Positions 6,278 to 46,591 of a stretch of 64,000 nt of DNA are shown one piece after another. The number at the start of each line of letters is the position of its first letter. Position 1 is the first letter of the stretch. Under the pieces are notes generated by a model. The model was not told where the DNA came from. It was given only the letters and a program-made list of their open reading frames with translations, and ran no database searches. Origin of the DNA: an uncultured Candidatus Saccharibacteria bacterium (GTDB lineage Bacteria; Patescibacteriota; Minisyncoccia; Phycocordibacterales; UBA12088); NCBI GenBank assembly GCA_964459635.1, contig CAYWMQ010000002.1:6776-70775 (forward strand), given 5' to 3'. A program made the translations under genes and the position numbers.

Positions 6278-6327
6278 AAGTATACCACTTGTGTCGCGGA
6301 GTACAGCACTCGGGGTACACTGGAAGT

Positions 6328-6978: not shown

Positions 6979-7086
6979 CGGACACGATACCAATCTGCGA
7001 ATGATACGAATGCAACGAATGTACTACGCGTTACGCGACTCGAACCCGCAACAAGCAGCGGAGTTGGCCAAGCTAGGGTGTGCAGC

Positions 7087-7778: not shown

Positions 7779-7994
7779 GGGTTGCACCTTGCCCCAAGCT
7801 TCGCAAGGAGCACGGCATGAACAGATCAAGGTACGTGTAGGCATTCGGGACAAGTAGGACATTGGACGAAAGTGAATATTGGAGGGTTGCACCTTGCCCC
7901 AAGCTTCGCAAGGAGCACGGCATGAACAGATCAAGGTACGTGTAGGCATTCGGGACAAGTAGGACATTGGACGAAAGTGAATATTGGAGGGTTG
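7779..7994. repeat. Perfect tandem duplication, 2 x 105 bp, ending inside the 5' end of tRNA-Ser
   Basis: The unit beginning caccttgccccaagcttcgcaagg... is repeated at 7785 and 7890 (period 105) with identical copies. A 6-bp GGGTTG microhomology sits at the junctions. Confidence 0.85.
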
Positions 7995-8074
7995 GCCGAG
8001 TGGTCGAAGGCGCATCACTGCTAACGATGTAGGGGGTAAAACCCCTCAAGGGTTCGAATCCCTTACCCTCCGCC
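7986..8074 (+). tRNA. tRNA-Ser (anticodon GCT), class II with long variable arm
   Basis: Hand-folded: acceptor GGAGGGT/ACCCTCC, anticodon loop CTGCTAA, GGGGG-TAAAA-CCCC variable arm, T-loop TTCGAAT. Very similar in outline to E. coli tRNA-Ser(GCU). Confidence 0.85.
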
Positions 8075-15000: not shown

Positions 15001-15076
15001 GGTGCGCGTGCCAGGGCTCGAACCTGGGACCGCCGAGGTATAAGCTCGGAGCTACTACCAACTGAGCTACACGCGC
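15001..15076 (-). tRNA. tRNA with anticodon UAU (reads AUA; tRNA-Ile2-like)
   Basis: Hand-folded from the reverse complement: acceptor GCGCGTG/CACGCGC, anticodon stem CCGAG/CTCGG, loop CTTATAC, T-loop TTCGAGC, discriminator A. Confidence 0.7.
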
Positions 15077-15253: not shown

Positions 15254-16699
15254 CTACTCACCGGGAGTGGGTGCAGACGTGGTCGCCCAGCTTGGGGCGG
15301 TGCCGGTGCTTGTGTTCATGTTCGTACGGTATATGGCCTCGCCAGCGCGTGCTTCAGGGGCAACCGGTGCGGAAGTGGTGCTTGTGCCCCAGCGTACGGA
15401 GTCGGAAAGCGTGCCATCGCTACGGTACAGACGCACGCTATCGCCGTCGTTGTCGAGTCCGTTACCAATGCTCATACTCAGTACCAACCACGCCGTACCT
15501 GTTGGTAGCGTCCAGAATTCATCCGTTGAGGTCGCGGGCGTGATGAGCGCATATGCTCCGGGCGCAAGGAGTCGCGTAGTTGTAGCGAGCGTGCGCGTGG
15601 CCGTGTCATCGCGCAGAGTCCAGCCCATCAGGTCTACGGTGGTGGAGCCGCTGTTCCAAAGCTCCACCCATTCGTTTTCCGGTTCTTCACCCCATGCACT
15701 GGTGGTGCCACTCCGGTACAACACCTCCGTGATACTTACGGTACCTGTTGCAGCAGTGGTCGTCGCGGGTGTCGTGGTCGCGGGTGTTGTTGTAGCAGGC
15801 GTGGTCGTGGCAGGTGTGGTTGTCGCCGGAGTAGTCGTCGCGGTCGTAGTCGTGGCAGATGTCGTGGTAGCGGAGCCTGAAGTTGCCATGCGCGAGAATC
15901 CGACGGTTACCGAGTCGGTGGTCGTACCCCTCTCATTTGCACAGGCGAGCGCGTACGTACTTGTCGCGTTTACCGTGACCGTACTGCTGCCCGTCGTAGC
16001 CCTGGACCCGCTCCATGCATTTGTGGCGATACAGCTATTTGCGTTTGTGCTGCTCCACGTGAGCGTGGTACTCGCCGGTGCGGTACCTGTGGCAGTCACC
16101 GTTTGAGGATCTGCACTGAGGTCAACAGTCGGAAGCGCCATAGTGGAGGTAGAGGTGGTACCTGTCGAGGTGCCAGTTGTGGTACCTGTCACTGTGAGCA
16201 TGATCGTGCGGGATGTTGTGCCCCGCTCATTCGCACACGCGAGGCTATACTCGGTGCTCGTCGCCGGCGATACGGCTGCCGTACCGGACGCGACGCGTGT
16301 GCCTGTCCAGCCTCCTGACGCAAGACACGTGTCCGCATACAGCGCGTTCCACATAAGGGTGCTGGTCGCTCCCGTAGCTATCGTTCCCGGGTTTGCGGAG
16401 AAAGTAAGCGCAACCGGCCGCGCCGGAGTACCGCTCCCCTCCTCACAAAACGCGGGGAGCTCTATGCCATACCTGTCTTGGAGTCCCGCGTACCGCGTAC
16501 ATATGCGCTCTTCGGCACGCGCAAGTCGCTCTTCAATACGCTGCAGGGCGCGCTCTATCCGCGCGTCTATCCGCTCTTGTATGCGCTCAAACAGGAGGTA
16601 TGTGTTGTCTGTCGTGGTTGCCTGCGCCTGCACCGTGTGCGGAAGCACGGAAGCGCACAAAGCTACAAGCAGAAGCGCAACGCTGGTTTGTATCTTCAT
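15254..16699 (-). CDS. Secreted surface protein with two Ig-like repeat modules, a Thr/Pro-rich linker and a C-terminal lamin-tail (LTD) domain
   Basis: Signal peptide MKIQTSVALLLVALCASVLPHTVQA; an internal ~95-aa repeat (...LACANERGTT... twice); (TTPAT)n linker; EWVELWN...VDLMGWTL LTD signature. Confidence 0.65.
   Translation of the reverse strand: MKIQTSVALLLVALCASVLPHTVQAQATTTDNTYLLFERIQERIDARIERALQRIEERLARAEERICTRYAGLQDRYGIELPAFCEEGSGTPARPVALTFSANPGTIATGATSTLMWNALYADTCLASGGWTGTRVASGTAAVSPATSTEYSLACANERGTTSRTIMLTVTGTTTGTSTGTTSTSTMALPTVDLSADPQTVTATGTAPASTTLTWSSTNANSCIATNAWSGSRATTGSSTVTVNATSTYALACANERGTTTDSVTVGFSRMATSGSATTTSATTTTATTTPATTTPATTTPATTTPATTTPATTTAATGTVSITEVLYRSGTTSAWGEEPENEWVELWNSGSTTVDLMGWTLRDDTATRTLATTTRLLAPGAYALITPATSTDEFWTLPTGTAWLVLSMSIGNGLDNDGDSVRLYRSDGTLSDSVRWGTSTTSAPVAPEARAGEAIYRTNMNTSTGTAPSWATTSAPTPGE
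15757..15872. repeat. 15-bp tandem repeat (about 7 copies) encoding the TTPAT linker
   Basis: ggtcgtNgcNggtgt-like units seen directly in the sequence. Confidence 0.7.
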
Positions 16700-28618: not shown

Positions 28619-28804
28619 CTACCAGCTGCTTTTCTTAACGCCCGGAAGGAAGCCTTCGTTGGCGAGTTCGCGGAAACAGATGCGGCACATATCGAAGTCG
28701 CGCATAAAACCACGGCCGCGGCCACAGCGGAAGCAGCGATTGGTAGCCCGTGTCGTAAACTTGGGCTTCTTTTGCGAACGGGCGATGACTGATTTCTTTG
28801 CCAT
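28619..28804 (-). CDS. rpsZ: 30S ribosomal protein S14 type Z (zinc-ribbon form)
   Basis: MAKKS...CxxC...CxxC, 61 aa. Confidence 0.85.
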
Positions 28805-28949
28805 GTGATTCTCTGTGGTGTATGTGGTACGTAGCCTGTGTACCTTCTCCTCACGTACGGATATCGAAATAAAAACGCTCACCTCCGAGCTTGGCGCATA
28901 GTAGCAGTATCGTTCCAGACTGTCAACGCGACAGCCGGCACGACATACC

Positions 28950-29486
28950 CTATCGCTCACGCAAGGGCAAACCGATATGTCGCAGGTATGCCTCCGCCTC
29001 GCCTCGCGTCTTTGCGGTGGTCACGAGGGTCACCGCAAAACCGAACACATCGCGCTGCTCCTCGTCGGCCGTCTCCGGGAAAATGGTGTGCTCACTCACG
29101 CCTATCGTGACGTTCCCCACCTCATCGATGGCTTTGGGAGAAAGGCCGCGGAAGTCGCGCGTGCGCGGAAAGGCGATGTGTATGAGCTTGTCTACAAAGT
29201 CGCGCATGCGTGCGCCGCGCAAGGTGATCTGGTACCCCACCACGTCACCCTGGCGCACCTTGAAAGACGCGATGGACTTCTTCGCACCGCGTGCAGCGGG
29301 CTTCTGTCCGGTAATACGCGCCAGTCTGTCTTGTATGAGCTCGATCTTTTTCGGGTCCGCCACTTTGCCCACCCCCACCGAGATTACCGCCTTTACGAGC
29401 TTGGGTGTTTGCATGGTGTTCTTGTACCCGTGCGTTTCGCGGAGCGCATCGTACACCGTCTTTTGTTTTTCGATGAGTGAAGCCAT
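28950..29486 (-). CDS. rplE: 50S ribosomal protein L5
   Basis: 178 aa; L5 signature. Confidence 0.9.
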
Positions 29487-29489
29487 GGT

Positions 29490-29804
29490 TTATGAGGAAA
29501 GTTTCGCGCCGCTCTTTTTTGCGATGCGTACACGTTTATCGTTTTCTTTGGACACTCCAACGCGCGTGGCTTTGCCGGACTTTGGGTCGCGGAGCCCCAC
29601 GTTTGACACATGAATGGGCGCAGCAAACTCAATAATGCCCCCGCCCTGCTTTGTTTGCTTGTTGGTCTTGCGGTGGCGCTTGTGGACATTGACGCCCTCC
29701 ACCACCACCTGATCGGTGGCAGGCAGTGCGCGGAGCACAGTACCGCTCTTCCCGCGGTCCTTGCCTGCTCGTATGATGACTGTGTCTCCTTTTCTTATTT
29801 TCAT
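29490..29804 (-). CDS. rplX: 50S ribosomal protein L24
   Basis: MKIRKGDTVII KOW-motif start chosen inside the longer ORF. Confidence 0.85.
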   Translation of the reverse strand: MKIRKGDTVIIRAGKDRGKSGTVLRALPATDQVVVEGVNVHKRHRKTNKQTKQGGGIIEFAAPIHVSNVGLRDPKSGKATRVGVSKENDKRVRIAKKSGAKLSS

Positions 29805-29848
29805 ACTGTAGTGATACAAATGCGACTCCTCGTTACCCGATACCAATC

Positions 29849-29980
29849 AACGAATGTGTACTTGTCCCGCCGTAGCTCGTTTGCGAAGGGGGGGGCGAAT
29901 GCTGCGAATAGATCCACCTATCTTGCTCTGACGCTGTGATCCATTCGTTGCATTCGTACCGTACTCGTGTAATTCGTATT
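29849..29980. repeat. ACGAATG ... CATTCGT inverted heptad array in the rplX-rplN spacer (180-bp intergenic gap inside the spc cluster)
   Basis: caacgaatg, ggcgaatgctgcgaatag, then ccattcgttgcattcgtaccgtactcgtgtaattcgtattg. It also contains the 16-nt block cccgccgtagctcgt shared with 36517..36535. Confidence 0.65.
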
Positions 29981-29983
29981 GTG

Positions 29984-30355
29984 TTATAGAACTTCCGGTG
30001 CCATGCTCGCTATCTTCTGGTACCCCATCTCGCCAAGCTCGCGCGGGACGGGGCCGAACACGCGGTTGGCGCGGGGCTCTTTCTTTGCCTTGTCCACGAT
30101 AACTACGGCGTTCTCATCAAAGCGGATGTAGCTTCCGTCCTTGCGGCGGAACGGCTGCGCACTGCGCACCACCACCGCTGTGAGGACGTCCTTTTTCTTC
30201 ACCGCCTTGCGCGGCTCTGCCACCTGCACGGAAAGAATAAGCAGATCACCAATGCGCGCGTAGCGTCTTTTGCTGCCGCCAAGTATCTTAAAGACGCGTC
30301 CGACCTTTGCGCCGGTGTTGTCTGCTATTTTGACGATGGATTGTGGCTGGATCAT
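29984..30355 (-). CDS. rplN: 50S ribosomal protein L14
   Basis: MIQPQS...AKVG..., 123 aa. Confidence 0.9.
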   Translation of the reverse strand: MIQPQSIVKIADNTGAKVGRVFKILGGSKRRYARIGDLLILSVQVAEPRKAVKKKDVLTAVVVRSAQPFRRKDGSYIRFDENAVVIVDKAKKEPRANRVFGPVPRELGEMGYQKIASMAPEVL

Positions 30356-30420
30356 GGATGAGTTTTGAGTGTAGAGTGGTCAGTGTAGAGCGCTCTGTCC
30401 TGTTGCGTGGTGCAAGCGAC

Positions 30421-30684
30421 TTATCGAACAACAGTGAAGTGCTTCAGCTTACTCATCGGACGGCACTCGCGGATGGTGACCTTGTCGCCCTCTTTTGCGG
30501 TGTTGCCCGCATCGTGTACATGGTAGCGCTTCACGCGCGAAATAAACTTGCGGTACTTCGGGTGCTTCACAAAGCGTGTCACCGCCACCACCACGGTATC
30601 TTTCATCTTTGCGGACACCACCACGCCCGTAAGCGTGCGGGGTGTCGTAGGTGCGGCGGTGCTTTGTGTGTTGGGAGTATTCAT
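30421..30684 (-). CDS. rpsQ: 30S ribosomal protein S17
   Basis: 87 aa; S17 fold sequence. Confidence 0.9.
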   Translation of the reverse strand: MNTPNTQSTAAPTTPRTLTGVVVSAKMKDTVVVAVTRFVKHPKYRKFISRVKRYHVHDAGNTAKEGDKVTIRECRPMSKLKHFTVVR

Positions 30685-30701
30685 GGGAAATGATACGAGA
30701 G

Positions 30702-30926
30702 CTATGCTACCTCTTCGGCCACCTCAGGTGCCGTGGCAGGCGTAGTGGCTTTTTTGGTCAAGATGCGCGCGATCGTCCTGCGGAGTATGCGGCCTTCTTT
30801 TGTGTTACGCACGCGACTGCCCGCCTGACCAAAACGAAACTGACGCAATGCCTCGCGCTTTTCAGCCAAAAGCTTGCCAAGGTCGTCGGCGCTCATCTTT
30901 TCCAGCTCTTTCATGTGCTTGTTCAT
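30702..30926 (-). CDS. rpmC: 50S ribosomal protein L29
   Basis: MNKHMKELEKMSADDLGKLLAEKREAL...; the start is ambiguous (30914 or 30926). Confidence 0.8.
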   Translation of the reverse strand: MNKHMKELEKMSADDLGKLLAEKREALRQFRFGQAGSRVRNTKEGRILRRTIARILTKKATTPATAPEVAEEVA

Positions 30927-30989
30927 ATGTTCTACAGGTGAGTGCTTGAATGGTATAGCACGCGCGCGCCTTTGCTGCAACGTGTCACA

Positions 30990-31409
30990 CTATGCACGGC
31001 TCGCGAAGCGTACGGCAACAGGCAGCTTTGCGCCCGCTTTCCGCAGGGCTTCCTTCGCTACGGCTTCGGAAACGCCGTCCACTTCAAACAGTACGCGCCC
31101 GGGAAGCACTTCAACCTCGTACGCCTCGACATCGCCCTTGCCCTTACCCATACCAACCTCGGCAGCCTTCTGCGTATATGGGCGGTCAGGGAAAATGCGA
31201 ATCCATGTGCGGCCGTTCTTTCCCAGTGCGCGACTGATGGTGCGACGGGCGGCCTCTATCTGATTGCTGCGGATGCGGCCCTGCTCGGTGGCCTTGATGG
31301 CAAAAGAGCCGAACGAAACCTCCGTGCCGCGCGTGGCCGCGTGACGGTACTGCAAGGCGTTGCGCCCGCGGTGCCATTTACGAAACTTTACTTTTTTGGG
31401 AAGCAGCAT
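30990..31409 (-). CDS. rplP: 50S ribosomal protein L16
   Basis: MLLPKKVKFRKWHRG... Confidence 0.9.
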   Translation of the reverse strand: MLLPKKVKFRKWHRGRNALQYRHAATRGTEVSFGSFAIKATEQGRIRSNQIEAARRTISRALGKNGRTWIRIFPDRPYTQKAAEVGMGKGKGDVEAYEVEVLPGRVLFEVDGVSEAVAKEALRKAGAKLPVAVRFASRA

Positions 31410-31419
31410 GGTGGTGGTG

Positions 31420-32094
31420 TTACGCGTTTTCTTCGCCCTCGAATATCTCGCCCTTGTATATCCAAACTTTCACCCCAATGAGACCGGTGTATGCGATGTA
31501 TGCCTCCGCGCGCGCAAAGTCTACGTCCGCGCGAAGCGTCTGGAGCGGCACGCGCCCGCGCTTGATCTCTTCGCTTCGGCTCATTTCGCTGCCGCCGATG
31601 CGGCCGGAAATGCCGATGCGCACGCCCAATACACCCCTGTTGGCCATCACCTTGTCGACCGTCTGCTTGAGGACGCGGCGAAACGGCATGCGCTTTTCAA
31701 GACCCTCAGCCACCATTTCGGCGACTATCTGCGCGTTTGCCTCGGGATTGCGCACCTCTTCGATATCAAACTTAACCTCTGCCGTATCGCCCGGTGAGAG
31801 CGTCGCCAGTTTCTTTGCTATTTCCTTTCGTATACGCTGAGCACCTTCGCCTGAGCGACCGATGATGAGGCCCGGACGCGCCGTCTTCACGATGATGCGC
31901 AGTATGCCGGCGTTGCGCTCTATCTCGATAGACGCAACGTACATGCCCTTGAGGCGCTTTTTGAGCCACTCACGGAGGAGTGTATCAGCACGAAGGTACT
32001 GCTTGTACTGCTTGCCGTCACGCACAAACCAGCGGCTCTTCCAGTCGCGTATGATGCCGATGCGTATGCCGTATGGATGTGCGATGTGAGTCAT
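31420..32094 (-). CDS. rpsC: 30S ribosomal protein S3
   Basis: KH and S3-C domains; 224 aa. Confidence 0.9.
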   Translation of the reverse strand: MTHIAHPYGIRIGIIRDWKSRWFVRDGKQYKQYLRADTLLREWLKKRLKGMYVASIEIERNAGILRIIVKTARPGLIIGRSGEGAQRIRKEIAKKLATLSPGDTAEVKFDIEEVRNPEANAQIVAEMVAEGLEKRMPFRRVLKQTVDKVMANRGVLGVRIGISGRIGGSEMSRSEEIKRGRVPLQTLRADVDFARAEAYIAYTGLIGVKVWIYKGEIFEGEENA

Positions 32095-32100
32095 AGAAGC

Positions 32101-32135
32101 GAGTAGAAAGTAGGAAGTAGCAAGTAGTAAGCAGC
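32101..32135. repeat. Five tandem AAGTAGn heptads (mRNA sense CTACTTn) filling the rplV-rpsC spacer
   Basis: gagtagaaagtaggaagtagcaagtagtaagcagc, read directly. Confidence 0.6.
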
Positions 32136-32141
32136 GCGGGA

Positions 32142-32486
32142 TTAACGATTTACCGGTTCGCGGTCGCGAAGCTCCACCTTCACATGCGAAGACTCGCGGT
32201 TGATGGGGGCGGCGCGACCGAACGCGCGAGGCATGTAGCGCGTAAAGGTCAGCCCCTTGTCGGCGGTAATGGTGGACACCACAAGCGACTCGTCCGTGCG
32301 GCTCGTGTCTTTCTGTCGTGCATTTGCAGCGGCGGATGCGATGAGCTTCTTGATGGGAAGCGCGGCCTTCTGCGGCATGTGCGTGAGGAGCGTGAGCGCT
32401 TCGTCCACCGTCTTACCGCGCACCACGTCTATGACGAGGCGCACCTTGCGCGGAGCTTGTCGATAGTTTTTTAGTGATGCTTTCAT
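32142..32486 (-). CDS. rplV: 50S ribosomal protein L22
   Basis: MKASLKNYRQAPRKVRLV start chosen inside the longer ORF. Confidence 0.85.
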   Translation of the reverse strand: MKASLKNYRQAPRKVRLVIDVVRGKTVDEALTLLTHMPQKAALPIKKLIASAAANARQKDTSRTDESLVVSTITADKGLTFTRYMPRAFGRAAPINRESSHVKVELRDREPVNR

Positions 32487-32535
32487 GTGATGATGTATTC
32501 GCGGCATTCGTACTCATTCGCAGATTCGTATCGTG

Positions 32536-32880
32536 CTATTTCTTACCGGTCGTCGTGGCTGCCTTGGCGGCCTTGGCTGCCTGTATCTCGGCGTCCTTGC
32601 GCTTCTGCTCAAGCTCCTTCTGGATCTTACCGCCGTGCCGTAGGAACTTCGTCGTCGGAGAAAACTCGCCAAGCTTGTGGCCCACCATGTCCTCCGTGCA
32701 GAGCACCTCCACGTGCGACTTGCCGTTGTGGACGCCAAACGTGAAGCCGACCATTTCGGGGCTGATGGTGCACGCGCGCGACCACGTGCGAATAACCCCG
32801 GTCGTTTGCGGCTTCTTGCCCTCTATCTTTTTCAAGACACGGGGGTCAACGTATGGTCCTTTCTTGAGTGAGCGTGACAT
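32536..32880 (-). CDS. rpsS: 30S ribosomal protein S19
   Basis: [12 protein letters not shown]... Confidence 0.9.
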
Positions 32881-32942
32881 GGTGTGTGATGACTGTGTGA
32901 GGTGCGCCTATACTACGCAACACCCCGAGTATTGTCAACGAA

Positions 32943-33788
32943 TTACGAACGTTTCTTACCAACCTTCCGCCGCGAGACGATGAGGGCGTTGCTGTACTTT
33001 TTCGGTGCGCGCGTCTTGTGCCCCTTGCCTGTGGGCTTGCCGAAGATGGATCGAGCTCGACGATGGCCGCGCCCTTGCCTGCCTTCACCGCCACCATGCG
33101 GGTGATCTACAGGGTTCATGACGGTACCGCGTACGGTCGGGCGCTTGCCGAGCCAGCGGCTGCGGCCGGCCTTGCCGAGCTTCACGAGCTGATGTTCATC
33201 GTTTGACACCACCCCGAGCGTAGCCCATGCCGCGCTGTTTACCTTGCGCACTTCTCCCGATGGCATCTTGAGGTGCGTATGGACGCCGTCCTGCGCTATC
33301 ACATCCGCACTGTTGCCCGCCGAGCGTGCAAAGCGTGCGCCTGCTCCCGGCTTGGTCTCGATGTTGTGAACCTGGGCACCGATGGGTACCGTACGAAGGG
33401 GCATACGTACGCCCGGTGCGGGCTTCGCCGTTTCGGACGCCACAAAGGTGTCGCCCACGCGCGCGTCCTTGTGTGCAAGAATATAGCGCCACTCGCCATC
33501 GGCATATACCACGAGGGCAATGTACGCGCTGCGGTTCGGATCGTACTCAATAGCGGTGATGCGTGCCGGAATATCCTTCTTTTCAAAGGTAAAGTCAACC
33601 GTGCGAAGCACGCGCTTGTGCCCGCCGCCCATGTGCCTGCTCGTAATGCGGCCCTGGCTGTTGCGGCCCGTGGCGCGCTTGCCGCCCTTGGTGAGCGCCT
33701 TCTTGGGCTTGGCGGAAGTCACCACGCTCTTGTACGAGCGAGTGGTCATGTGACGGCGCGACTGTGTTGTGGGACGATACTTTTTCAT
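32943..33788 (-). CDS. rplB: 50S ribosomal protein L2
   Basis: 281 aa, ...VMNPVDHPHGGGEGR... Confidence 0.9.
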   Translation of the reverse strand: MKKYRPTTQSRRHMTTRSYKSVVTSAKPKKALTKGGKRATGRNSQGRITSRHMGGGHKRVLRTVDFTFEKKDIPARITAIEYDPNRSAYIALVVYADGEWRYILAHKDARVGDTFVASETAKPAPGVRMPLRTVPIGAQVHNIETKPGAGARFARSAGNSADVIAQDGVHTHLKMPSGEVRKVNSAAWATLGVVSNDEHQLVKLGKAGRSRWLGKRPTVRGTVMNPVDHPHGGGEGRQGRGHRRARSIFGKPTGKGHKTRAPKKYSNALIVSRRKVGKKRS

Positions 33789-33806
33789 GGTATGAGACTG
33801 GTGCTT

Positions 33807-34202
33807 TTACAGGAGGTCTATCTTATCACCTTCCTTGAGGTACACGTGCGCTTTCTTGTACCCGCTTACCGTACCGCGACGACGGCGCGTGCGCGATATC
33901 TTGACGCGCGGCTGCACGCGGACCGTGTTGACCTTGACAGGCACGACGCCATACACCGCCTGCACTGCGTTCATGATGTCGCGCTTTGTCGCATCCACCG
34001 CCACATCAAATACATATACGCGGCGCTCAATGGCATACGTGGCCTTTTCGGTGATGCGCGGCGCGCGGAGGATGCGCTCAGGCGTTTTGGTGAGAGCGGC
34101 TGTCAGCTTGCCCTGCTTTGTGACGGCCTTTTTGCGCGCAGGCTTAGCCGCTGTACCCGCGTGCTTCTTCGCCTTTGTGTCTGATCTAGAAAAAATAGCC
34201 AT
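33807..34202 (-). CDS. rplW: 50S ribosomal protein L23
   Basis: MAIFSR... start chosen inside the longer ORF; a Lys/Ala-rich N-terminus followed by the L23 core. Confidence 0.85.
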   Translation of the reverse strand: MAIFSRSDTKAKKHAGTAAKPARKKAVTKQGKLTAALTKTPERILRAPRITEKATYAIERRVYVFDVAVDATKRDIMNAVQAVYGVVPVKVNTVRVQPRVKISRTRRRRGTVSGYKKAHVYLKEGDKIDLL

Positions 34203-34209
34203 GGTGGTG

Positions 34210-34893
34210 TTATTTAGCGGTGCGGGCGCGCTTTTCAAGCACTTCCACCGACTCTGCGGGCGATGCAATGATGAGGTACTTGTGGCGCAAGACTTCTACC
34301 GGATTGAGATTGCGTGCATCCTCAAGCATGATGTGGCCGAAGTTACGGAAGCTCTTCTTTGTTGCCTCGCCCGGCGCTGCGACCGCTACAAGGGCTGCAT
34401 TTTTGCGCTTGGTTGCAAGCGGCGCGAAACCGTCGACCTTCGCAAGCGCCATGAGCGTCTTATTCGCCTCGGCGGCCTTGGGCTCCGCAAATGCAAGCTC
34501 GTCCAGGAAGAGCACCTCGCCATCGGCAAGCTTGCGCGAAAGCACCGCATAGAGAGCCTGTACGCGCATCTTCTTGTTTATCTTCTGCGCGTATGAGCGC
34601 TCGTTGCGCGGGCCATGCGCCACGCCTCCCTTGGTCCAGATAGGGCTGCGGCGGCTGCCGTGGCGGGCGTTGCCCGTACCCTTCTGTTTCCATGGTTTCT
34701 TGCCCGTGCCGGACACTTCCGCGCGGTTCTTCGTGTGTGCGATGGGCGTACGAGCATTGGCCTGCATAGCGGTCACCACCTGGTGTACCAGATCTGCGTT
34801 CCACGCGGCACCGAATACAGCCTCGGGAAGATTGATCTCTCCCGCCTTAGTGCCTGCCGTGTTGTAGATAGTTGCTTTCATGGTGTGGGTCAC
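34210..34893 (-). CDS. rplD: 50S ribosomal protein L4
   Basis: 227 aa; L4 signature region. Confidence 0.9.
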   Translation of the reverse strand: MTHTMKATIYNTAGTKAGEINLPEAVFGAAWNADLVHQVVTAMQANARTPIAHTKNRAEVSGTGKKPWKQKGTGNARHGSRRSPIWTKGGVAHGPRNERSYAQKINKKMRVQALYAVLSRKLADGEVLFLDELAFAEPKAAEANKTLMALAKVDGFAPLATKRKNAALVAVAAPGEATKKSFRNFGHIMLEDARNLNPVEVLRHKYLIIASPAESVEVLEKRARTAK

Positions 34894-35016
34894 GATGCGA
34901 ATCTACGAATGGGTGCGAATGCTACGAATAAATGCTCTACCGGCGATACATTAAGAGTGTTGCATACGTTAGTAATTCATTCGCTGCATTCGTAACATTC
35001 GTTGATTAGTATCGTG
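34894..35016. repeat. Inverted array of ACGAATG / CATTCGT heptad-like repeats in the rplC-rplD spacer
   Basis: Four ACGAATG-type units face three to four CATTCGT units across a ~40-nt centre. It can fold as a long imperfect hairpin in the mRNA. Confidence 0.7.
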
Positions 35017-35625
35017 CTATTTTCCGCGTACCTCCACCAGCGAGCCGCGCCGCCCGGGCACCGCGCCGCGAATGTATAGGAGGTTCTTTTCGGGATCGAC
35101 GGCCACAACTGTCAAATTTTTCGTCGTTACGCGGTCACTGCCCATGCGTCCCGCCATGCGCATGCCCTTGGGAACGCGCCGGCGAAGACCGCCACCGATG
35201 GATCCGGGCTGACGCTCGTTGTGTTTCTGGCCGTGGCTACGGGGACCGCCCGAGAAATCGTGGCGCTTCACCACGCCTTGGTAGCCCTTGCCTTTCGACG
35301 TACCGGACACCATGACGACGTCGCCAACCGCAAACATATCGGCAACGGTCAAAACCGTACCGATCTCTTGGCTTACTGACTCGCCTGGAGCGGCCCGGTA
35401 TTCCTTGAAGTGCCTGAAAAGACCCTTCGGGCGCTGCGCCTTGTTGATGTGCTTCTCCTTAGCCTCGCCAAACGCAAGCTGTACAGCCGCGTAGCCATCC
35501 TTTTCGGGCGTTTTGAGCTGCGTTACGGTATTCGGGGTAGCCAAAAGCACCGTGGCAGGGTGTACGCGCCCGTCTGCATCGAATATTTGGGTCATATGCT
35601 GCTTGGTGGCGAGAATGAATTTCAT
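35017..35625 (-). CDS. rplC: 50S ribosomal protein L3
   Basis: 202 aa, L3 signature. Confidence 0.9.
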   Translation of the reverse strand: MKFILATKQHMTQIFDADGRVHPATVLLATPNTVTQLKTPEKDGYAAVQLAFGEAKEKHINKAQRPKGLFRHFKEYRAAPGESVSQEIGTVLTVADMFAVGDVVMVSGTSKGKGYQGVVKRHDFSGGPRSHGQKHNERQPGSIGGGLRRRVPKGMRMAGRMGSDRVTTKNLTVVAVDPEKNLLYIRGAVPGRRGSLVEVRGK

Positions 35626-35676
35626 GACGCGATACGAATCAACGAATGGGTACGAATGCTACGAATGTGGTACGTA

Positions 35677-35697
35677 CAAAAAAGCCCGCACCGGGCC
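35677..35697 (-). terminator. Intrinsic terminator / attenuator-like hairpin in the rplC 5' leader
   Basis: Minus-sense ggcccggtgcgggc followed by TTTTTT, located between a candidate minus-strand promoter (about 35785..35795) and the rplC start. A CATTCGT array follows it. Confidence 0.55.
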
Positions 35698-35815
35698 AAG
35701 CGCCGGTAGGGCGAAAGGTCCAGTGGTTCCCGCCTCTCAGCTTGGGAACATGGAAGCAGCGTGAAGCTGCGTATAGGCTCATGCACTATACACGAAGGGC
35801 TTTGGGAATGCAAAT

Positions 35816-35844
35816 TTGACTTTTTCTCTGATATTTGCTATAAT
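35816..35844 (+). promoter_or_regulatory. Near-consensus sigma70-type promoter (TTGACT-17-TATAAT)
   Basis: Read directly in the sequence; it drives the small membrane-protein ORF at 35892. Confidence 0.6.
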
Positions 35845-35891
35845 ATTAAATTGAAGTGTCCCGCACTTTTCCACATAAGTAGGAGGACAAA

Positions 35892-36143
35892 ATGATGGTA
35901 GTCCTATGGTTGGCGTTGGTCACTGTTGCTGGGACGGTCCTGGGCGCCTTCGTTACGGTGCCGGTGCTGCTCATCGTCACAGTGATTGCTATGTCCGTAG
36001 TGCTTTGGTGCTATCTCAAAAATCCTTCGGCCATTTACGGACCATCGGCGGCCGGCCTCATTGCTGGTATGTGGTTCATGTATTTCCTCACCACCCACGA
36101 TGCGGCAGCGCGAACGTTCGTCGACACGTACATCTTGCGGTAG
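35892..36143 (+). CDS. Small hydrophobic membrane protein (83 aa), hypothetical
   Basis: Strong SD TAGGAGGAC; two to three TM helices. Confidence 0.45.
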   Translation: MMVVLWLALVTVAGTVLGAFVTVPVLLIVTVIAMSVVLWCYLKNPSAIYGPSAAGLIAGMWFMYFLTTHDAAARTFVDTYILR

Positions 36144-36179
36144 ATCGAGCAAGCGAAAGAAGAAGGAGTAGGAGCGGCC

Positions 36180-36374
36180 ATGTTCATTTTGCGTAGCCTC
36201 GACAAGAACGGCAAGCGTGTATACCGCACACGCAACGGCGGTTGGAGCACGCATCGGAACGATGCGTGCAGATACGAATCCCACGAGTTTGCGCAACGCG
36301 TAGCTCGACGGACGACGCCGCCGGCGCGCAACGCGCGTGTTGAGATTGAGTCTGTGCGCGAGAAGGAAAAGTAA
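36180..36374 (+). CDS. Small basic hypothetical protein (64 aa)
   Basis: SD GAAGGAG upstream; a hairpin follows at 36431..36456. Confidence 0.35.
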   Translation: MFILRSLDKNGKRVYRTRNGGWSTHRNDACRYESHEFAQRVARRTTPPARNARVEIESVREKEK

Positions 36375-36674
36375 GCGAAGAGTTGCAGATTCCTAGATCA
36401 GACCGATTCGAGTAAGCAAACGCGTCTCGCATCACGGCTCACCTTCGGGTGAGCCGTGAACTGTTTGTAGCTACCTGAAATTGTTGATAGTCTCCATTTT
36501 CGCTGATATCCGCGCGTGTCCGCCGTAGCTCGTGGGGACAACGAATGCGGGTGGTATCCGCGTCTAGCATCCAGCCTCCGCTAGAGCTACCTGCCTACCG
36601 GCAGGTAGGCGGATTACGTGGGATCTAAGTCGCCCCCACCCTGCTACGCCGGAGGCGACGCAGGTTCTAAAAAA

Positions 36675-37664
36675 CTGTGAATTACGAAACTCCTCCCCAC
36701 CCCTTTGCACCATACACCCCAAACACACCCGTTAGGGTGTAGCACGTACGCTTGATTGTCACACACACGAAGGAAATTGATTGTGCCTACGCGAGCACGA
36801 ATGAAAGAAGTGCGTAGAGATAGTTTGCGAAGTACCCATTCACTGAGCGCGGAAGTGAGGTAACGAGACCGTGGAACAGCTTCAGGTTGCGGAAGTCGAA
36901 CTCGATGTCAAAGCGTTTCTTGTAGAGGTGGAGCTGCCAAGCCTCGGCGAGCTTCTTCATGTTTTTGTACGGCTTGATGAGCACCCACCGCCGGTCGTTG
37001 TTCATGTCGCGCTCAAGTTGCTTTGACACGTACCCCGCATCCGCAACGATGATGCCCTCGATGTATTCGTTGATCTTGCGGAAGATGTCGCGGTCATCCG
37101 CGTTGGCGGGCGTGAAGCGGAGCGCGAGGAGACGTCCCGCAGCATCCCGTGTCATGGTCATTTTAAGGCCGAAATAGAAGCCTTTTCCAGAGTGGCCCCA
37201 TGCGGCGAGTCCGGCCATGGTCTTGTGGTGTTTACCGTTCTTGGTGAGACACACGGGTATATCGGTCGCATCGGTGTACTTCACGATGTGCTGGTCCTTG
37301 TGCCCGAGCCGCATGAGGTATGCAAGGATCAGGAACACCAGACGGGCTGCACGATTGATCGCCTCCACAAACGTCTTGTACGAGCAAGGTATCGCTTCCT
37401 TGAAGTCGTCATATACGGACTTCTTAGTAGCGCGTGTTGACTGATGCCAGTACAGGCCCCAAATGACCGCGTCCAAGGGATTGATGGCTAATGGTCGACC
37501 CACCCTCTTTCCTTCGGGGAGGATGTGGAGTTTTTGTGCTATGTGTGTGACAATGTGCGTGAGGTTGTCCCATATCTTTGGGAACATACAATACAAGAGG
37601 CTCCATACGGAGCCTTTTGTATTGTATCGAAATGCAGTGCGGGAGGGAGTTTCGTAATTCACAG
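36675..37664. mobile_element. IS982-like insertion sequence (990 bp) with 24-bp imperfect terminal inverted repeats and a 7-bp TAAAAAA target-site duplication
   Basis: IRL ctgtgaattacgaaactcctcccc matches IRR (reverse complement ctgtgaattacgaaactccctccc). Direct repeats TAAAAAA at 36668..36674 and 37665..37671. A single DDE transposase ORF lies inside. Confidence 0.75.
36787..37587 (-). CDS. DDE transposase (IS4/IS5 superfamily, IS982-like)
   Basis: 267 aa from MFPKIWDNL; the length and single-ORF organisation are typical of IS982-family elements. The DDE catalytic triad was not identified. Confidence 0.7.
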   Translation of the reverse strand: MFPKIWDNLTHIVTHIAQKLHILPEGKRVGRPLAINPLDAVIWGLYWHQSTRATKKSVYDDFKEAIPCSYKTFVEAINRAARLVFLILAYLMRLGHKDQHIVKYTDATDIPVCLTKNGKHHKTMAGLAAWGHSGKGFYFGLKMTMTRDAAGRLLALRFTPANADDRDIFRKINEYIEGIIVADAGYVSKQLERDMNNDRRWVLIKPYKNMKKLAEAWQLHLYKKRFDIEFDFRNLKLFHGLVTSLPRSVNGYFANYLYALLSFVLA

Positions 37665-37681
37665 TAAAAAAGGCTACAACC

Positions 37682-39747: not shown

Positions 39748-41274
39748 CTATAGGCACCGTTCGCACATATCTGCAACGGGGCTTCGCTCCCCATGCTGTA
39801 AGATGACGTGCCCGTAGAGGGGGTTGCCATACAGTTTGACCGCTACGTGGGCGAGACCGCAGTTGCTTGGCGAGAGATATTTATTGTCCAACTGAGCGAA
39901 GTTGCCCAGGACGACAATTTTAGATCCCAGTCCAATGCGGGTTCCAATGGTCTTCGCCTGATGTGGCGTGAGGTTTTGTACCTCATCCACAGTCACAAAC
40001 GCCCGTGTATAGCTGCGCCCACGCACAAACGCGAATAAGTTGACCTCGAATAGGCCCGCCAGCGTCCGCTCCATTTGTTGCTGTTGGGCGCGCTTGGTGT
40101 TTTCAGTACCGGCGGTGGGTCCGTCACTCTTGCCACGACGCCCGTTCCCTTGCCTATGTACCTGCTCCGTCAAGGCTTCTGCTATGATCTCAAGGTTGTC
40201 GTACAGCGCCTTGTGCCACGGTGTGCCCTTCCCAGGCTCATCCCCCGGAAGTGCACCCGGATCAGTATCAACCGGGACCATGGCACGAGTGACAACAGCC
40301 TTGCGATACCGTCCGACAGCATGCGGTGGCTTAGACGAATGCATATCAAAGGCGACGTTCTGCGCGACCGCGGCGGCTGCCGTCATGAGGCTTTTACCTG
40401 TCCCCGCCCTTCCTATTAAGGTTACGAACGGGATGGTGGGGTCCATGAGCAAGTTCAACGCAGCTATTTGCTCGGCACTTCTTGCACAAATACCGGCCAC
40501 GTTGTTCTGCGGAAGCGAGTAGTCTACGGACCGCTCCAGAAGAACGTGGTCGTCGTGGATTTGACGCACAATGAAGTGCCGGCCGTCGCCGTATAGGAAG
40601 TTGTTAATCTGCACAGGCGCAGGAAGTGCTAGCTCATCCGTCTTGAGCCGAAAAAGCTTGCGTGGGTTTCCTTCACCACCCGCAGCCACCAGATGCTCCC
40701 AATACGCACTGTGTAACTTCACAAGGCCGGTCTCAAGCACGTCCGTGTCTTTGATTACCATGTCGCTCTGGTAATCCTCGACATGCACCCCCAGCGCATC
40801 TGCTTGGATGCGCATATTATTATCGTTTGATACCAGCACCACATCGCGGTACGCGTGGCCCAGGTACTCATTCGACAGAAGCTTTGCTCCGGCGATGATC
40901 CTGTCGTCTGCACTTGCTTCGTCAAGCGCCAGCATGCGGACCATCTCACACACGGGAGCGGTGATGATAATCAACTGACTCTCCGTGGAAGAGTCTCCCC
41001 CGTTGGTCGGGTACCGCTTCCCAATGTTGGGCAGTACCACGGTGCCCTTCGCTTGGGCGTTGCGCCCGGTAATGTTCGTAATAATACGCGACACCTCGCG
41101 CGCATTCTGCGCAACATCGCTATCCCCAAGCTTGACCCCCGTTTTTTTTCGATCAAGCTCTTTAAGAACCGTGATCGAAATGGCCACGTCGTGAGGAGCA
41201 AACCTGTATATGGCCTGTGGATCGTGCAAAAGCACGCTCGTATCCAACACGAAAAGCTTCTTCGCGACGTCCAT
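39748..41274 (-). CDS. PhoH-like ATPase with N-terminal PIN domain (YlaK-like)
   Basis: N-terminal FVLDTSVLLHDP PIN motif; central GRAGTGKS Walker A of PhoH-family ATPases. Confidence 0.8.
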   Translation of the reverse strand: MDVAKKLFVLDTSVLLHDPQAIYRFAPHDVAISITVLKELDRKKTGVKLGDSDVAQNAREVSRIITNITGRNAQAKGTVVLPNIGKRYPTNGGDSSTESQLIIITAPVCEMVRMLALDEASADDRIIAGAKLLSNEYLGHAYRDVVLVSNDNNMRIQADALGVHVEDYQSDMVIKDTDVLETGLVKLHSAYWEHLVAAGGEGNPRKLFRLKTDELALPAPVQINNFLYGDGRHFIVRQIHDDHVLLERSVDYSLPQNNVAGICARSAEQIAALNLLMDPTIPFVTLIGRAGTGKSLMTAAAAVAQNVAFDMHSSKPPHAVGRYRKAVVTRAMVPVDTDPGALPGDEPGKGTPWHKALYDNLEIIAEALTEQVHRQGNGRRGKSDGPTAGTENTKRAQQQQMERTLAGLFEVNLFAFVRGRSYTRAFVTVDEVQNLTPHQAKTIGTRIGLGSKIVVLGNFAQLDNKYLSPSNCGLAHVAVKLYGNPLYGHVILQHGERSPVADMCERCL

Positions 41275-43567: not shown

Positions 43568-43741
43568 ATGACAGGATGCTAATTTTACTAATGACGTACG
43601 AATGCAACGAATAATTGACCCGTACGGTATGAATAAAAATCCGCGCAACGCGGTAGGTGACGACACTATACCGTGCGTTGACGGAATACTCAAGAGGTGA
43701 TTAGGTGTGGGCAGACGCAACAGCTGGGAAGGACGTGCGTA

Positions 43742-46128: not shown

Positions 46129-46174
46129 ATCTCGATACTAATCTACGAATTTCTACGAATACTGCGAATTAATG

Positions 46175-46591
46175 CTACTTTGCCGCCTTCGGGCGCTTTG
46201 CACCGTACATGGAGCGGCTCTTGCGGCGCTTGTCCACACCGGCGGCATCGAGCTTACCGCGCACCACCGTGTAGCGGATGTTGACGTCCTTCACACGGCC
46301 GCCGCGGATGAGCACCACCGAGTGCTCCTGCAAGTTGTGTCCTTCGCCGGGAATATACGCTGATACTTCCATGCCGTTACTGAGGCGCACGCGGGCGTAC
46401 TTACGTATAGCGGAGTTAGGCTTGCGGGGCGTCTTGGTCGTCACCTTCACACACACACCACGCTTGAAAGGCGCCGCGTAGTAGGTCGGCTTGTTTTTGA
46501 GCACGTTGAAACCGCGACCGAGTGCGGGCACTTTCGACTTCCGTGTCCTGTCCTGACGGGGCTTGCGTACAAGCTGGTTTATCGTTGCCAT
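46175..46591 (-). CDS. rpsL: 30S ribosomal protein S12
   Basis: [12 protein letters not shown]...PKKPNSA.RK..RV.L. Confidence 0.95.

What the first reader, a model, noticed from the sequence alone, without database searches (positions are those of the whole stretch)
34894..35016. Dispersed family of ACGAATG/CATTCGT heptad arrays in intergenic spacers of the ribosomal-protein operons
Arrays of three to four imperfect heptads built on CGAATG, spaced 8-10 bp (one helical turn), occur at 6993..7030 (after comFC), 29849..29980 (rplX-rplN), 32494..32530 (rpsS-rplV), 32920..32942 (rplB-rpsS), 34894..35016 (rplC-rplD), 35626..35670 (rplC leader), 43595..43615 (fusA leader) and 46134..46175 (rpsG-rpsL). 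At 29849..29980 and 34894..35016 both orientations face each other, so the transcript can form a long imperfect hairpin. Other sites carry one orientation only. Flanking motifs recur (atcgtgctatt, gattagtatc / gatactaatc). Spc/S10 clusters normally have almost no intergenic DNA, so 100-180-bp spacers filled with a shared repeat are unexpected. Possible roles: RNase III-type processing sites, autogenous regulatory protein binding sites, a miniature repeat element derived from the IS ends, or binding sites for an unknown regulator coordinating r-protein expression.
Basis: seen in the sequence. Interest (0 to 1): 0.6.

Follow-up and report, generated by a model that had tools for sequence, protein, structure and literature searches.

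The report
Mobile heptad-repeat hairpin elements
The ACGAATG arrays are real, but they are copies of a small, apparently undescribed selfish repeat element that has inserted between genes of this ultra-small (CPR-type) bacterium's ribosomal operons, and into operon junctions and even protein-coding genes of many related lineages; they are not a control system built for ribosomal proteins.

Summary
Clusters of at least 3 CGAAT cores at 8-10 bp spacing occur 6 times against 0.13 expected, and a profile finds exactly nine ~40-nt "arms" in the window, all non-coding. One listed site (32920-32942) is instead a sigma70-type promoter. Each arm reads CACGATAC-nAATCt-(ACGAATGnn)x3-4. Two spacers hold inverted arm pairs that fold into long imperfect hairpins (rplC-rplD: -46.6 kcal/mol, z -6.1).

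The closest relatives (L2 77-82% identical) have empty sites: 11-13, 5-9 and 6-9 nt where the window has 135, 49 and 179 nt. The element sits 0-4 nt after the upstream stop codon.

The same ~45-nt arm, more than 80% identical, occurs in Saccharibacteria, Paceibacteria, Liptonbacteria, Sungiibacteria and Woesebacteria. There it lies at other operon junctions (ftsA-ftsZ, lemA-htpX, infC-rpmI, S15-pnp, L14-L24) and in frame inside gatA, leuS, another class I aaRS gene and murD.

Best reading: a REP/MITE/RPE-like foldback repeat family, co-transcribed and probably near-neutral. The mobilising enzyme is unknown. A dedicated r-protein regulator is not supported, although the copies do cluster in the str/S10/spc region (Fisher p=0.005).

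The parts
34977..35016 (-). Arm (reads CACGATACTAATCAACGAATGTTACGAATGCAGCGAATGA in mRNA sense). It starts on the base after the rplC stop codon and forms the 5' half of the rplC-rplD hairpin.
   Evidence: nhmmer E 2.3e-12; spacer read; fold
34932..34976 (.). Non-conserved loop between the two arms of the rplC-rplD pair. It is not homologous to the loop of the rplN-rplX pair.
34891..34931 (+). Arm (CACGATGCGAATCTACGAATGGGTGCGAATGCTACGAATAA on the + strand), forming the 3' half of the hairpin in the mRNA. It is followed by the retained ancestral ACCCACACC and the rplD ATG at 34881.
   Evidence: nhmmer E 6.6e-13; empty-site comparison
35628..35668 (+). Solo arm between the rplC leader hairpin/U-run (35697-35683) and the rplC ATG (35625).
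   Evidence: nhmmer E 1.4e-13
32496..32535 (-). Solo arm starting directly after the rpsS stop. The ancestral CATCATCAC precedes the rplV ATG (32486).
   Evidence: nhmmer E 4.8e-13; relatives have 5-9 nt here
29941..29983 (-). Arm starting directly after the rplN stop; 5' half of the rplN-rplX pair.
   Evidence: nhmmer E 2.9e-9
29836..29912 (+). Partner arm of the rplN-rplX pair, split and decayed. The outer part is 29836-29870 and the inner two-heptad fragment is 29896-29910, separated by about 25 unrelated bases (29871-29895); one search places the fragment's envelope at 29880-29912.
   Evidence: nhmmer E 1.1e-7 and 0.034; fold
46131..46171 (+). Solo arm filling the whole 46-nt rpsL-rpsG spacer.
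   Evidence: nhmmer E 6.3e-11
43575..43613 (+). Degenerate solo arm between the fusA leader hairpin/U-run (43653-43641) and the fusA ATG (43567).
   Evidence: nhmmer E 7.4e-9
6983..7022 (+). Solo arm 4 nt after the stop of a ComF-type gene (6289-6978), in a convergent spacer. It is the only copy outside the str/S10/spc region.
   Evidence: nhmmer E 9e-12
32910..32938 (-). NOT a member.
   Evidence: conserved in relatives

Best explanation
The arrays are copies of a small non-autonomous repeat element with a foldback or REP/MITE-like design. Its unit is a ~40-45-nt arm: a conserved outer end (CACGATAC-nAATCt; ATAATGC-nAATCT in low-GC lineages) followed by 3-4 ACGAATG heptads at 8-10 bp.

Arms occur alone or as inverted pairs. 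They were inserted into the short, transcribed junctions between co-directional genes, typically 0-4 nt after the upstream stop codon. This leaves the CA-rich bases before the next ATG intact.

The arms are co-transcribed with the operon. Paired copies fold into a long imperfect hairpin with no U-tract, so they do not terminate transcription. Their main property is self-propagation or horizontal spread among CPR/Patescibacteria. Any effect on mRNA processing, on stability, or on translation of the flanking cistrons is secondary.

Shown: family membership, insertion relative to relatives, wide and patchy distribution, in-frame copies in coding sequences, and hairpin potential.

Inferred: mobility as the cause, co-transcription, and near-neutrality.

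Unknown: the enzyme that moves the element.
For: 1. Empty orthologous sites. In the closest related operons (L123-L130, L2 77-82% identical) the spacers are 11-13 nt (L3-L4), 5-9 nt (S19-L22) and 6-9 nt (L14-L24), against 135, 49 and 179 nt in the window. The window keeps the ancestral pre-ATG bases to the right of the element.

2. Patchy occurrence at different junctions. ACGAAT arrays are absent from about 74 of 80 related operons (654 kb). They are present at L23-L2 in L122 (that junction is empty in the window), at L23-L2, S19-L22 and S3-L16 in L171, before L10 in L148, and at L24-L5 in L135. The distant L091 (L14 64%, L24 39% identical) also has a pair at L14-L24, while nearer relatives lack it.

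3. Sequence conservation across classes. The ~45-nt arm is more than 80% identical in Saccharibacteria, Paceibacteria, Liptonbacteria, Sungiibacteria and Woesebacteria MAGs, whatever the genome GC. Arm GC is 0.43 against 0.57 for the window.

4. Contexts are not specific to r-proteins. Copies lie at ftsA-ftsZ, lemA-M48 peptidase, infC-rpmI, S15-pnp, ABC-macB and before a glutaredoxin gene.

5. In-frame copies inside genes. These are gatA (L066, L322, L323; +8 aa relative to S. aureus GatA), leuS (L045), a class I aaRS gene (L038) and, in reverse orientation, murD (L325). The nearest GatA relatives (80-83% identical) lack the arm.

6. Whole-pair duplication and uncompensated decay. The two L171 copies share arms and loop. 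One has lost left-arm heptads with no matching change on the right (dG -32.9 against -20.7). Window copies at rplX and fusA are degraded.

7. The heptads are conserved but the linkers between them are not complementary between paired arms. This fits protein-recognised repeats better than a selected RNA helix.
Against: No transposase or other partner with matching ends was found, and no clear target-site duplication.

The loops of the two window pairs are unrelated, so the pairs may be assembled from separate arms rather than moved as one unit.

Copies cluster within the window: 6 of about 29 str/S10/spc junctions carry one, against 1 of about 58 elsewhere (Fisher p=0.005). About 20 other spacers of 100 nt or more are empty. 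A random selfish element does not predict this, though local hopping or a REP-like preference for transcribed junctions would.

Only 64 kb (+3 kb) of the source genome could be examined.

The 'close' relatives are only 77-82% identical in L2.
Confidence: 0.65

Rival explanations
1. The paired arms work at the RNA level. They would form an intercistronic hairpin that is cut by RNase III or protects the upstream mRNA. Alternatively, because the hairpin starts at the stop codon, it would stall or re-position terminating ribosomes and so tune the relative output of neighbouring cistrons in an organism without Shine-Dalgarno pairing. On this reading the element may have arrived as selfish DNA but is now kept for this effect.
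For: The hairpin is strong (dG -46.6, z -6.07). Its base brings the rplC stop and the rplD start to within about 9 nt of each other.

There is no U-run after it, so read-through is expected.

Pairs in other lineages fold equally well (L093 -74, L122 -51 kcal/mol).

Placement 0-4 nt after stop codons recurs.

Known parallels: RNase III cuts Correia elements (PMC10969869), and REPs close to stop codons depress upstream translation in E. coli (my own knowledge, not tested here).

No SD is visible in the window, and some Parcubacteria lack the anti-SD (PMC9297842).
Against: Five of the nine window arms are solo and cannot form the hairpin.

Arms occur in both orientations relative to transcription.

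Linkers are not complementary, and decay is uncompensated.

Relatives do without the elements.

The same arm sits inside coding sequences.
Confidence: 0.15
2. The heptad arrays are operator-like binding sites for an oligomerising DNA- or RNA-binding host protein that co-ordinates expression of translation genes.
For: The window shows local enrichment in str/S10/spc junctions (p=0.005).

About 6 of 15 contexts in the unbiased CPR hits are translation-related (binomial p about 0.017 under an assumed 15% background).

Several copies lie where classical autogenous control acts in model bacteria: the rpsL-rpsG spacer, the L10 leader, the rpmI leader, the pnp leader and the L24-L5 junction (the parallel is from general knowledge).

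Conserved heptads with free linkers at a regular ~9-bp period look like protein-binding repeats. Comparable arrays are the omega-protein heptads, MetJ boxes and MraZ repeats (recalled from general knowledge, not tested).
Against: The arrays are absent from orthologous spacers of the nearest relatives and from about 74 of 80 related operons.

They are present at ftsZ, htpX, macB and glutaredoxin junctions and in frame in gatA, leuS and murD.

Distance to the start codon varies from 2 to 31 nt.

Orientation is variable.

The arrays lie downstream of the promoters found, not over them.
Confidence: 0.12
3. The arrays are not transposed DNA. They would be templated additions made during break repair or by a reverse-transcriptase/primase-like activity that copies a fixed ~45-nt template from its start. 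This would give complete outer ends, variable inner ends, inverted pairs from two-sided priming and no target duplication.
For: The outer end is constant and the number of heptads varies (3-5).

Loops of pairs are unrelated in the window.

No target-site duplication and no partner transposase were seen.

Other CPR lineages carry the same architecture with other heptads: ATAAAGT in L171 and (G/C)TCAAAG in L133/L134.
Against: This is purely architectural inference with no enzyme candidate.

The L171 copies share the loop as well as the arms, which indicates movement or duplication of a whole unit.
Confidence: 0.05
4. The arrays reflect chance or simple compositional bias or slippage in AT-richer spacers.
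For: The single hexamer is not enriched. Other spacers show unrelated short-period arrays, for example CTACTTnC at 32095-32141.
Against: Clusters occur 6 times against 0.125 expected. The nine copies share 62-83% identity over ~45 nt, flanks included. Near-identical arms occur in other classes of bacteria.
Confidence: 0.01

Closest known systems
REP / BIME / REPIN elements of Enterobacteria and Pseudomonas (mobilised by RAYT tyrosine transposases)
   Same: Both are short (about 40 nt) units found alone or as inverted doublets that fold into a hairpin. Both are extragenic but lie inside transcription units, often just after stop codons and between genes of an operon. Copies are dispersed and diverged. 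Singlets look like remnants of doublets.
   Different: Each REP is itself an imperfect palindrome with a GTAG or CGTC tag (PMC3733652). The arm here is a direct-repeat array of heptads with no such tag. No RAYT gene was seen. REP families are lineage-specific and mostly vertically inherited, whereas this arm is more than 80% identical across CPR classes.
Correia elements (Neisseria MITEs) and ERIC
   Same: These are elements of about 100-150 bp with inverted ends, inserted in intergenic, co-transcribed positions. Their transcripts form hairpins that RNase III or RNase E can cut (PMC10969869).
   Different: Correia elements have 26-bp simple inverted ends, a conserved core and TA target duplication. 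Here the ends are heptad arrays, the core is not conserved in the window copies, and no duplication is evident.
Rickettsia palindromic elements (RPEs)
   Same: Both are palindromic repeats in a reduced genome that are found between genes and also in frame inside unrelated essential genes, adding a short peptide in a loop (here N-L-R-M-x-x-N-A-x-N in GatA, LeuRS and a class I aaRS; I-R-D-S-R-Y-S-H-K-F-A-D-S in MurD).
   Different: RPEs are about 100-150 bp, genus-specific and inserted as whole palindromes. Here the in-gene copies are single 36-45-nt arms. No in-gene copy occurs in this window.
Foldback (FB) transposons of eukaryotes
   Same: The inverted ends are built from tandem short sub-repeats, so the whole element can snap back into a hairpin. 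The middle is variable.
   Different: FB ends are hundreds of bases long and eukaryotic, and some carry transposase genes. No relationship is implied, only similar architecture (from general knowledge, not tested).
Operator arrays of short repeats (pSM19035 omega heptads, MetJ met-boxes, MraZ repeats)
   Same: These also have three to five copies of a 5-8-bp motif at a regular 7-10-bp period, in direct or inverted sets.
   Different: Those sit at promoters of a defined regulon. Here the arrays lie after stop codons or inside genes, in unrelated operons, and are absent from close relatives.

Membership tests
MITE (miniature inverted-repeat transposable element) | Terminal inverted repeats | tested here: met
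   Paired copies have ~40-nt inverted arms. Five of the nine window copies are solo arms.
MITE (miniature inverted-repeat transposable element) | Small size, no coding capacity, several dispersed copies | tested here: met
   Sizes are 40-180 nt. There are nine arms in 64 kb, and several copies per operon in L171.
MITE (miniature inverted-repeat transposable element) | Target-site duplication flanking the element | tested here: inconclusive
   Filled/empty comparisons and flanks of 12 non-CPR copies show no consistent direct repeat. A 'TA' cannot be told apart from the palindromic end.
MITE (miniature inverted-repeat transposable element) | A parent IS or transposon with the same ends | tested here: not met
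   The window IS (36674-37665, DDE_Tnp_1) has unrelated ends. The IS630 next to an element in L032 has its own ends. No arm pairs flank ORFs in about 2 Mb of fetched loci. Whole genomes were not searchable.
MITE (miniature inverted-repeat transposable element) | Presence/absence polymorphism at orthologous sites | tested here: met
REP/REPIN | The unit is a 20-40-nt imperfect palindrome with a GTAG or CGTC tag | tested here: not met
   The arm is a direct-repeat array. Its outer end is CACGATAC/ATAATGC.
REP/REPIN | Extragenic but transcribed location; inverted doublets plus singlets | tested here: met
   Transcription is inferred from operon position, not measured.
REP/REPIN | Cognate single-copy RAYT gene flanked by the repeats | not testable with these tools
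   Only 64 kb (+3 kb) of the source genome was available. The window ORFs were not all screened.
Rickettsia-type protein-coding palindromic elements | In-frame insertion in unrelated genes, tolerated in loops | tested here: met
   This holds for the family, not for the window. The genes are gatA, leuS, a class I aaRS gene and murD.
Autogenous r-protein operator / r-protein leader RNA | Conserved at the orthologous position in related genomes | tested here: not met
Autogenous r-protein operator / r-protein leader RNA | Match to a described r-protein leader family | tested here: not met
   Rfam found nothing at gathering or at E<=1 on 28700-36800, and nothing on 8 other loci with elements.
TIGR (tandem interspaced guide RNA) arrays | Box C / box D motifs flanking spacer pairs, next to a tas gene | tested here: not met
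   There is no RUGAUGA/CUGA in arms or loops (read against the description in bioRxiv 10.64898/2026.09.09.750476). No Nop-domain gene was noticed nearby.
Intrinsic terminator | GC-rich stem followed by a U-run | tested here: not met
   The terminator scan lists none at the arms. The hairpins are followed by ACCCACACC and similar sequences.

The most novel reading that the evidence does not exclude
The ~45-nt arm would be the recognition sequence of a conserved, still unidentified Patescibacteria protein or ribonucleoprotein. That factor would place the arm specifically at stop-codon/start-codon junctions and in surface loops of conserved, highly expressed genes. This would be a homing-type mobile element class without a known transposase, spreading between CPR lineages (and perhaps to and from Chloroflexi, Planctomycetes and ANME archaea, which carry CACGAAT versions). 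Its hairpins might have been co-opted to set cistron-to-cistron translation in Parcubacteria that have lost Shine-Dalgarno pairing.
Probability: 0.15. Interest if true: 0.8.

Novelty: new variant of a known kind. Interest (0 to 1): 0.5.

Why it matters
CPR/Patescibacteria genomes are regarded as extremely streamlined. A repeat family that expands the tight junctions of their most conserved operons from about 10 nt to 50-180 nt runs against that picture. It also adds peptides to GatA, LeuRS and MurD.

The family is a ready marker of DNA exchange between CPR lineages. It is also a source of mis-called gene starts: one public gene call starts rplV at the ATG of a CGAATG heptad.

It also offers a natural experiment. 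Operons translated without Shine-Dalgarno pairing evidently tolerate long hairpins placed between a stop codon and the next start codon.

I found no description of the family in four full-text searches. If that holds, it is a CPR counterpart of REP, Correia and RPE elements with an unusual heptad-array design and an unknown mobilising activity.

Tried and rejected
- **IS-derived MITE.** The window IS (IS5/IS4-type) and an IS630 abutting an element in L032 both have unrelated ends.

- **Promoter function.** Low-GC copies carry a TATAAT-like outer flank 7 nt before the first heptad. It faces inward from both ends of pairs, and the window has CACGAT in its place. The promoter scan puts the real promoters elsewhere.

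- **Leaderless-mRNA -10 box at the ATG-proximal end.** The A at position 2 is not conserved (TAGTAT, TCGTAT, TCGCAT, TGGTAT).

- **TIGR-Tas guide arrays.** There are no box C/D motifs.

- **Rfam families.** None matched.

- **tRNA T-arm origin (GATTCGAATC).** The flanks cannot form the T-stem, and the motif is not conserved among copies.

- **Phage origin.** The CPR-type arm has 0 hits in IMG/VR. The looser pattern hits viral contigs only as perfect 9-bp coding repeats, (NAT)n, (NAA)n and (PNA)n, in single orientation. That is a different phenomenon.

- **High-GC genome hits** (L007, L035, L095, L116, L120). These are plain 9-bp microsatellites.

- **Autonomous copy.** No inverted arms 0.3-5 kb apart enclose a transposase. 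The ANME repeat unit is only 110-175 bp.

- **Compensatory covariation between arms.** Linkers differ and one decaying copy shows no compensation, but the sample is too small for a formal test.

- **Protein-database census of the arm-encoded peptide.** The query was too short for the tool.

- **More of the source genome.** Only about 3 kb beyond the window was reachable, and it holds no further arms.

Full report

The r-protein genes lie on the minus strand. The gene map comes from public gene calls on identical contigs and from Pfam:

| Gene | Coordinates (minus strand) |
|---|---|
| rpsL | 46591-46175 |
| rpsG | 46128-45658 |
| fusA | 43567-41417 |
| PIN/PhoH gene | between fusA and tuf |
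| tuf | 39526-38117 |
| rpsJ | 38095-37721 |
| IS5/IS4-type IS | 36674-37665 |
| rplC | 35625-35017 |
| rplD | 34881-34210 |
| rest of S10/spc | down to secY |

There is no L30 gene.

The hexamer CGAATG alone is not enriched (48 against 40.8). Runs of at least 3 CGAAT at 8-10 bp are enriched: 6 against 0.125 expected, with a maximum of 2 in 200 shuffles.

The repeat finder joins the sites into one family. A profile of the copies recovers exactly nine members at E<=1e-7 and nothing else. All nine are non-coding.

It is a TTGACA-17-TAGTAT promoter that is conserved in relatives.

**2. Anatomy**

The unit is a 40-45-nt arm: CACGATAC-nAATCt-ACGAATG-n3-4-CGAATGC-nn-CGAAT. The nine arms are 62-83% identical to one another. 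They are AT-richer than the genome (GC 0.43 against 0.57).

The outer CACGATAC end always faces a gene boundary. In mRNA sense, four arms start 0-4 nt after a stop codon (comF-type gene, rplC, rpsS, rplN). Five arms end 2-31 nt before a start codon (rpsG, fusA, rplC, rplD, rplX).

Two spacers hold an inverted pair:

- The rplC-rplD pair folds into a 126-nt imperfect hairpin (dG -46.6 kcal/mol, z -6.07). Its base brings the rplC stop codon and the rplD start region close together.
- The rplN-rplX pair is split by unrelated sequence and folds less distinctly (z -2.2).

The heptads pair, but the linkers between them form internal loops. The loops of the two pairs are unrelated. No U-run follows either hairpin.

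**3. The arms are insertions**

A protein-guided scan with L2 fetched 80 related S10/spc loci (654 kb). ACGAAT arrays are absent from about 74 of them.

The closest loci (L2 77-82% identical) compare with the window as follows:

| Junction | Relatives | Window |
|---|---|---|
| L3-L4 | 11-13 nt | 135 nt |
| S19-L22 | 5-9 nt | 49 nt |
| L14-L24 | 6-9 nt | 179 nt |

The window keeps the ancestral CA-rich bases next to the ATG. For example, relatives read 'TAA CATACCATC ATG', and the window reads 'TAG [40-nt arm] CATCATCAC ATG'. The element therefore entered directly after the stop codon.

In the rplC and fusA leaders the arm sits between a promoter-proximal hairpin/U-run and the ATG. In relatives' rpsS leaders that same kind of hairpin/U-run abuts the ATG directly.

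Other lineages carry the family at other junctions:

- L122 (82% identical): L23-L2, which is empty in the window.
- L171: L23-L2, S19-L22 and S3-L16.
- L148: before L10.
- L135: L24-L5.

A distant Paceibacteria MAG (L091; L14 64%, L24 39% identical) has a pair at L14-L24, although nearer relatives do not. That junction is therefore a repeated target, or has seen repeated loss.

**4. The family is CPR-wide and not tied to r-proteins**

It still returned the same arm, flanks included, in Saccharibacteria, Paceibacteria, Liptonbacteria, Sungiibacteria, Woesebacteria and unclassified Patescibacteria MAGs with GC 0.38-0.54. The identity is more than 80% over about 45 nt.

Contexts confirmed by Pfam and by reading are:

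- ftsA-ftsZ
- lemA-M48 peptidase
- infC-rpmI
- S15-pnp
- ABC ATPase-macB permease
- upstream of a glutaredoxin gene
- L14-L24

Single arms also lie in frame inside genes:

- gatA in three lineages. L066 reads ..FDGVRYSRNPNLRMHPNAANRSGLDHLY.., which is +8 aa against S. aureus GatA.
- leuS (L045).
- A class I aaRS gene (L038).
- murD, in reverse orientation (L325).

The nearest GatA relatives (80-83% identical outside the loop) lack the arm.

**5. Wider picture**

Inverted CGAAT-heptad elements with a GAACA-CGAAT... end occur in Chloroflexi, Planctomycetota, Nitrospiraceae and Bacteroidota MAGs. A divergent arrangement occurs in ANME-2c archaea.

Other CPR lineages fill r-protein junctions with the same architecture built on other heptads: ATAAAGT in L171, and (G/C)TCAAAG at four junctions of L133/L134.

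Viral hits to the loose pattern are unrelated coding repeats.

**6. What the elements most likely are and do**

The evidence fits a non-autonomous, REP/MITE/RPE-like foldback repeat that spreads within and between CPR genomes and survives where it does least harm. Such places are transcribed junctions just after stop codons and surface loops of proteins.

Two L171 copies share both arms and loop, which indicates duplication of a whole unit. One of them has lost left-arm heptads without compensation. This argues against strong selection on the helix.

Conserved heptads with free linkers point to recognition by a protein. Its identity is unknown: no matching IS ends, no target duplication and no flanked ORF were found.

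Functional side effects are plausible for the paired copies but remain untested. They include RNase III cleavage, protection of the upstream mRNA, and interference with terminating ribosomes.

One point remains open. Within the window, copies are concentrated in str/S10/spc: 6 of about 29 junctions against 1 of about 58 elsewhere (p=0.005). About 20 other long spacers are empty. Local hopping, a REP-like bias for transcribed intercistronic DNA, or a real link to highly expressed operons could each explain this.

**7. Comparison and novelty**

The element works like REP/BIME/REPIN and Correia elements in location, doublets, singlets and hairpins. It works like RPEs in its in-frame copies.

It fails defining features of each. 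It is not a palindromic REP unit with a GTAG/CGTC tag. No RAYT, parent IS or target duplication was found.

Rfam has no match. Four literature searches found no description of such a family in Patescibacteria.

I therefore file it as a new variant of a known kind. The r-protein-regulator reading is not supported.

**8. Limits**

- Only 64 kb of the source genome was available, plus about 3 kb that holds no arms.
- The genome scan was truncated.
- The taxonomic label (CPR, Parcubacteria-like) is inferred from the missing L30, the absent SD and the related loci.
- Mobility is inferred from comparative patterns, not observed.

Noticed in passing
window 24855-46591 (all r-protein gene starts): No Shine-Dalgarno motif precedes any r-protein gene. 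Starts are preceded by G-poor CA-rich runs (CACCACC ATG, CATACC ATG, ACC ATG). This fits the report that a Parcubacteria subgroup lacks the anti-SD in 16S rRNA (PMC9297842).
   Followed up: partly
window 36674-37665: An IS5/IS4-type insertion sequence (DDE_Tnp_1, 298 aa, 25-nt inverted repeats) plus about 1 kb of unannotated DNA separates rpsJ (38095-37721) from rplC. rplC has its own promoter (35814-35785) and a ~110-nt leader ending in a hairpin and U-run (35697-35683). The leader has no Rfam match.
   Followed up: partly
window 32910-32938, 28898-28926, 43665-43693 (minus strand): There are internal sigma70-type promoters inside the S10/spc cluster and before fusA. In the L5-S14, fusA and rplC leaders each promoter is followed by a short GC hairpin and AUUUUUAUU before the ATG. 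The rpsS (L2-S19) version is conserved in relatives (L122-L130), where the hairpin/U-run is present; the window's own rpsS leader lacks it. This may be a standard 5'-UTR design rather than an attenuator.
   Followed up: partly
window 32095-32141 (rplV-rpsC spacer); L150, L170, L144 junctions: Single-orientation, G-poor short-period arrays lie just upstream of start codons: CTACTTnC in the window, TACTCGnn in L170, and ACTAACCTCCTAA in four junctions of L150. The L150 motif contains the anti-SD-like CCUCC in the mRNA sense.
   Followed up: no
GatA loop after FDGIRY in CPR (P0001-P0120; L322-L325): This loop is hypervariable between GatA proteins 80-90% identical elsewhere, and it is built from short DNA repeats. 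L325 has (AGAAATK)x5 with a 7-nt period. L324 has arrays of CGCGGATAAA/TCAGCGTAAA, giving ..PRKSASSPRKSAL.. in at least 8 lineages. The loop appears to be a hot spot for several repeat families.
   Followed up: partly
L133-L177 and others (L2-S19 junction): Many more distant CPR relatives have 0.4-4 kb inserted between rplB and rpsS, with extra genes splitting the S10 operon. The window and its close relatives have 62-74 nt there.
   Followed up: no
window 7779-7988: A perfect 105-bp tandem duplication ends at the 5' end of tRNA-Ser(GCU) (7986-8074).
   Followed up: no
window 15001-15076: A tRNA-Ile with anticodon UAU is present. This is uncommon in bacteria, which usually use lysidine-modified CAU.
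   Followed up: no
window 15746-15886: Seven copies of a 15-bp-period repeat (GT-rich on the + strand) lie inside a long minus-strand ORF (15254-16699), probably encoding a pentapeptide repeat.
   Followed up: no
window 39748-41274: A PIN-PhoH fusion gene sits between fusA and tuf inside the str operon.
   Followed up: no
L202-L321 (IMG/VR contigs): Perfect 9-bp tandem repeats (ACGAATGCN)n of 3-15 copies encode (NAT)n, (NAA)n or (PNA)n runs in phage and giant-virus proteins. They are unrelated to the dispersed arms but are caught by the same pattern.
   Followed up: partly
L002 4197-4562 versus L001 4989-5333 (window 32507 versus 32486): One public gene call starts rplV at the ATG of a CGAATG heptad inside the arm (121 aa instead of 114 aa). 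This shows how the element misleads start-codon prediction.
   Followed up: yes
L093 152-1243: An SSU rRNA hit spans model positions 1-1533 in only about 1.09 kb, next to element copies. It may be a strongly reduced or broken 16S gene in that MAG.
   Followed up: no
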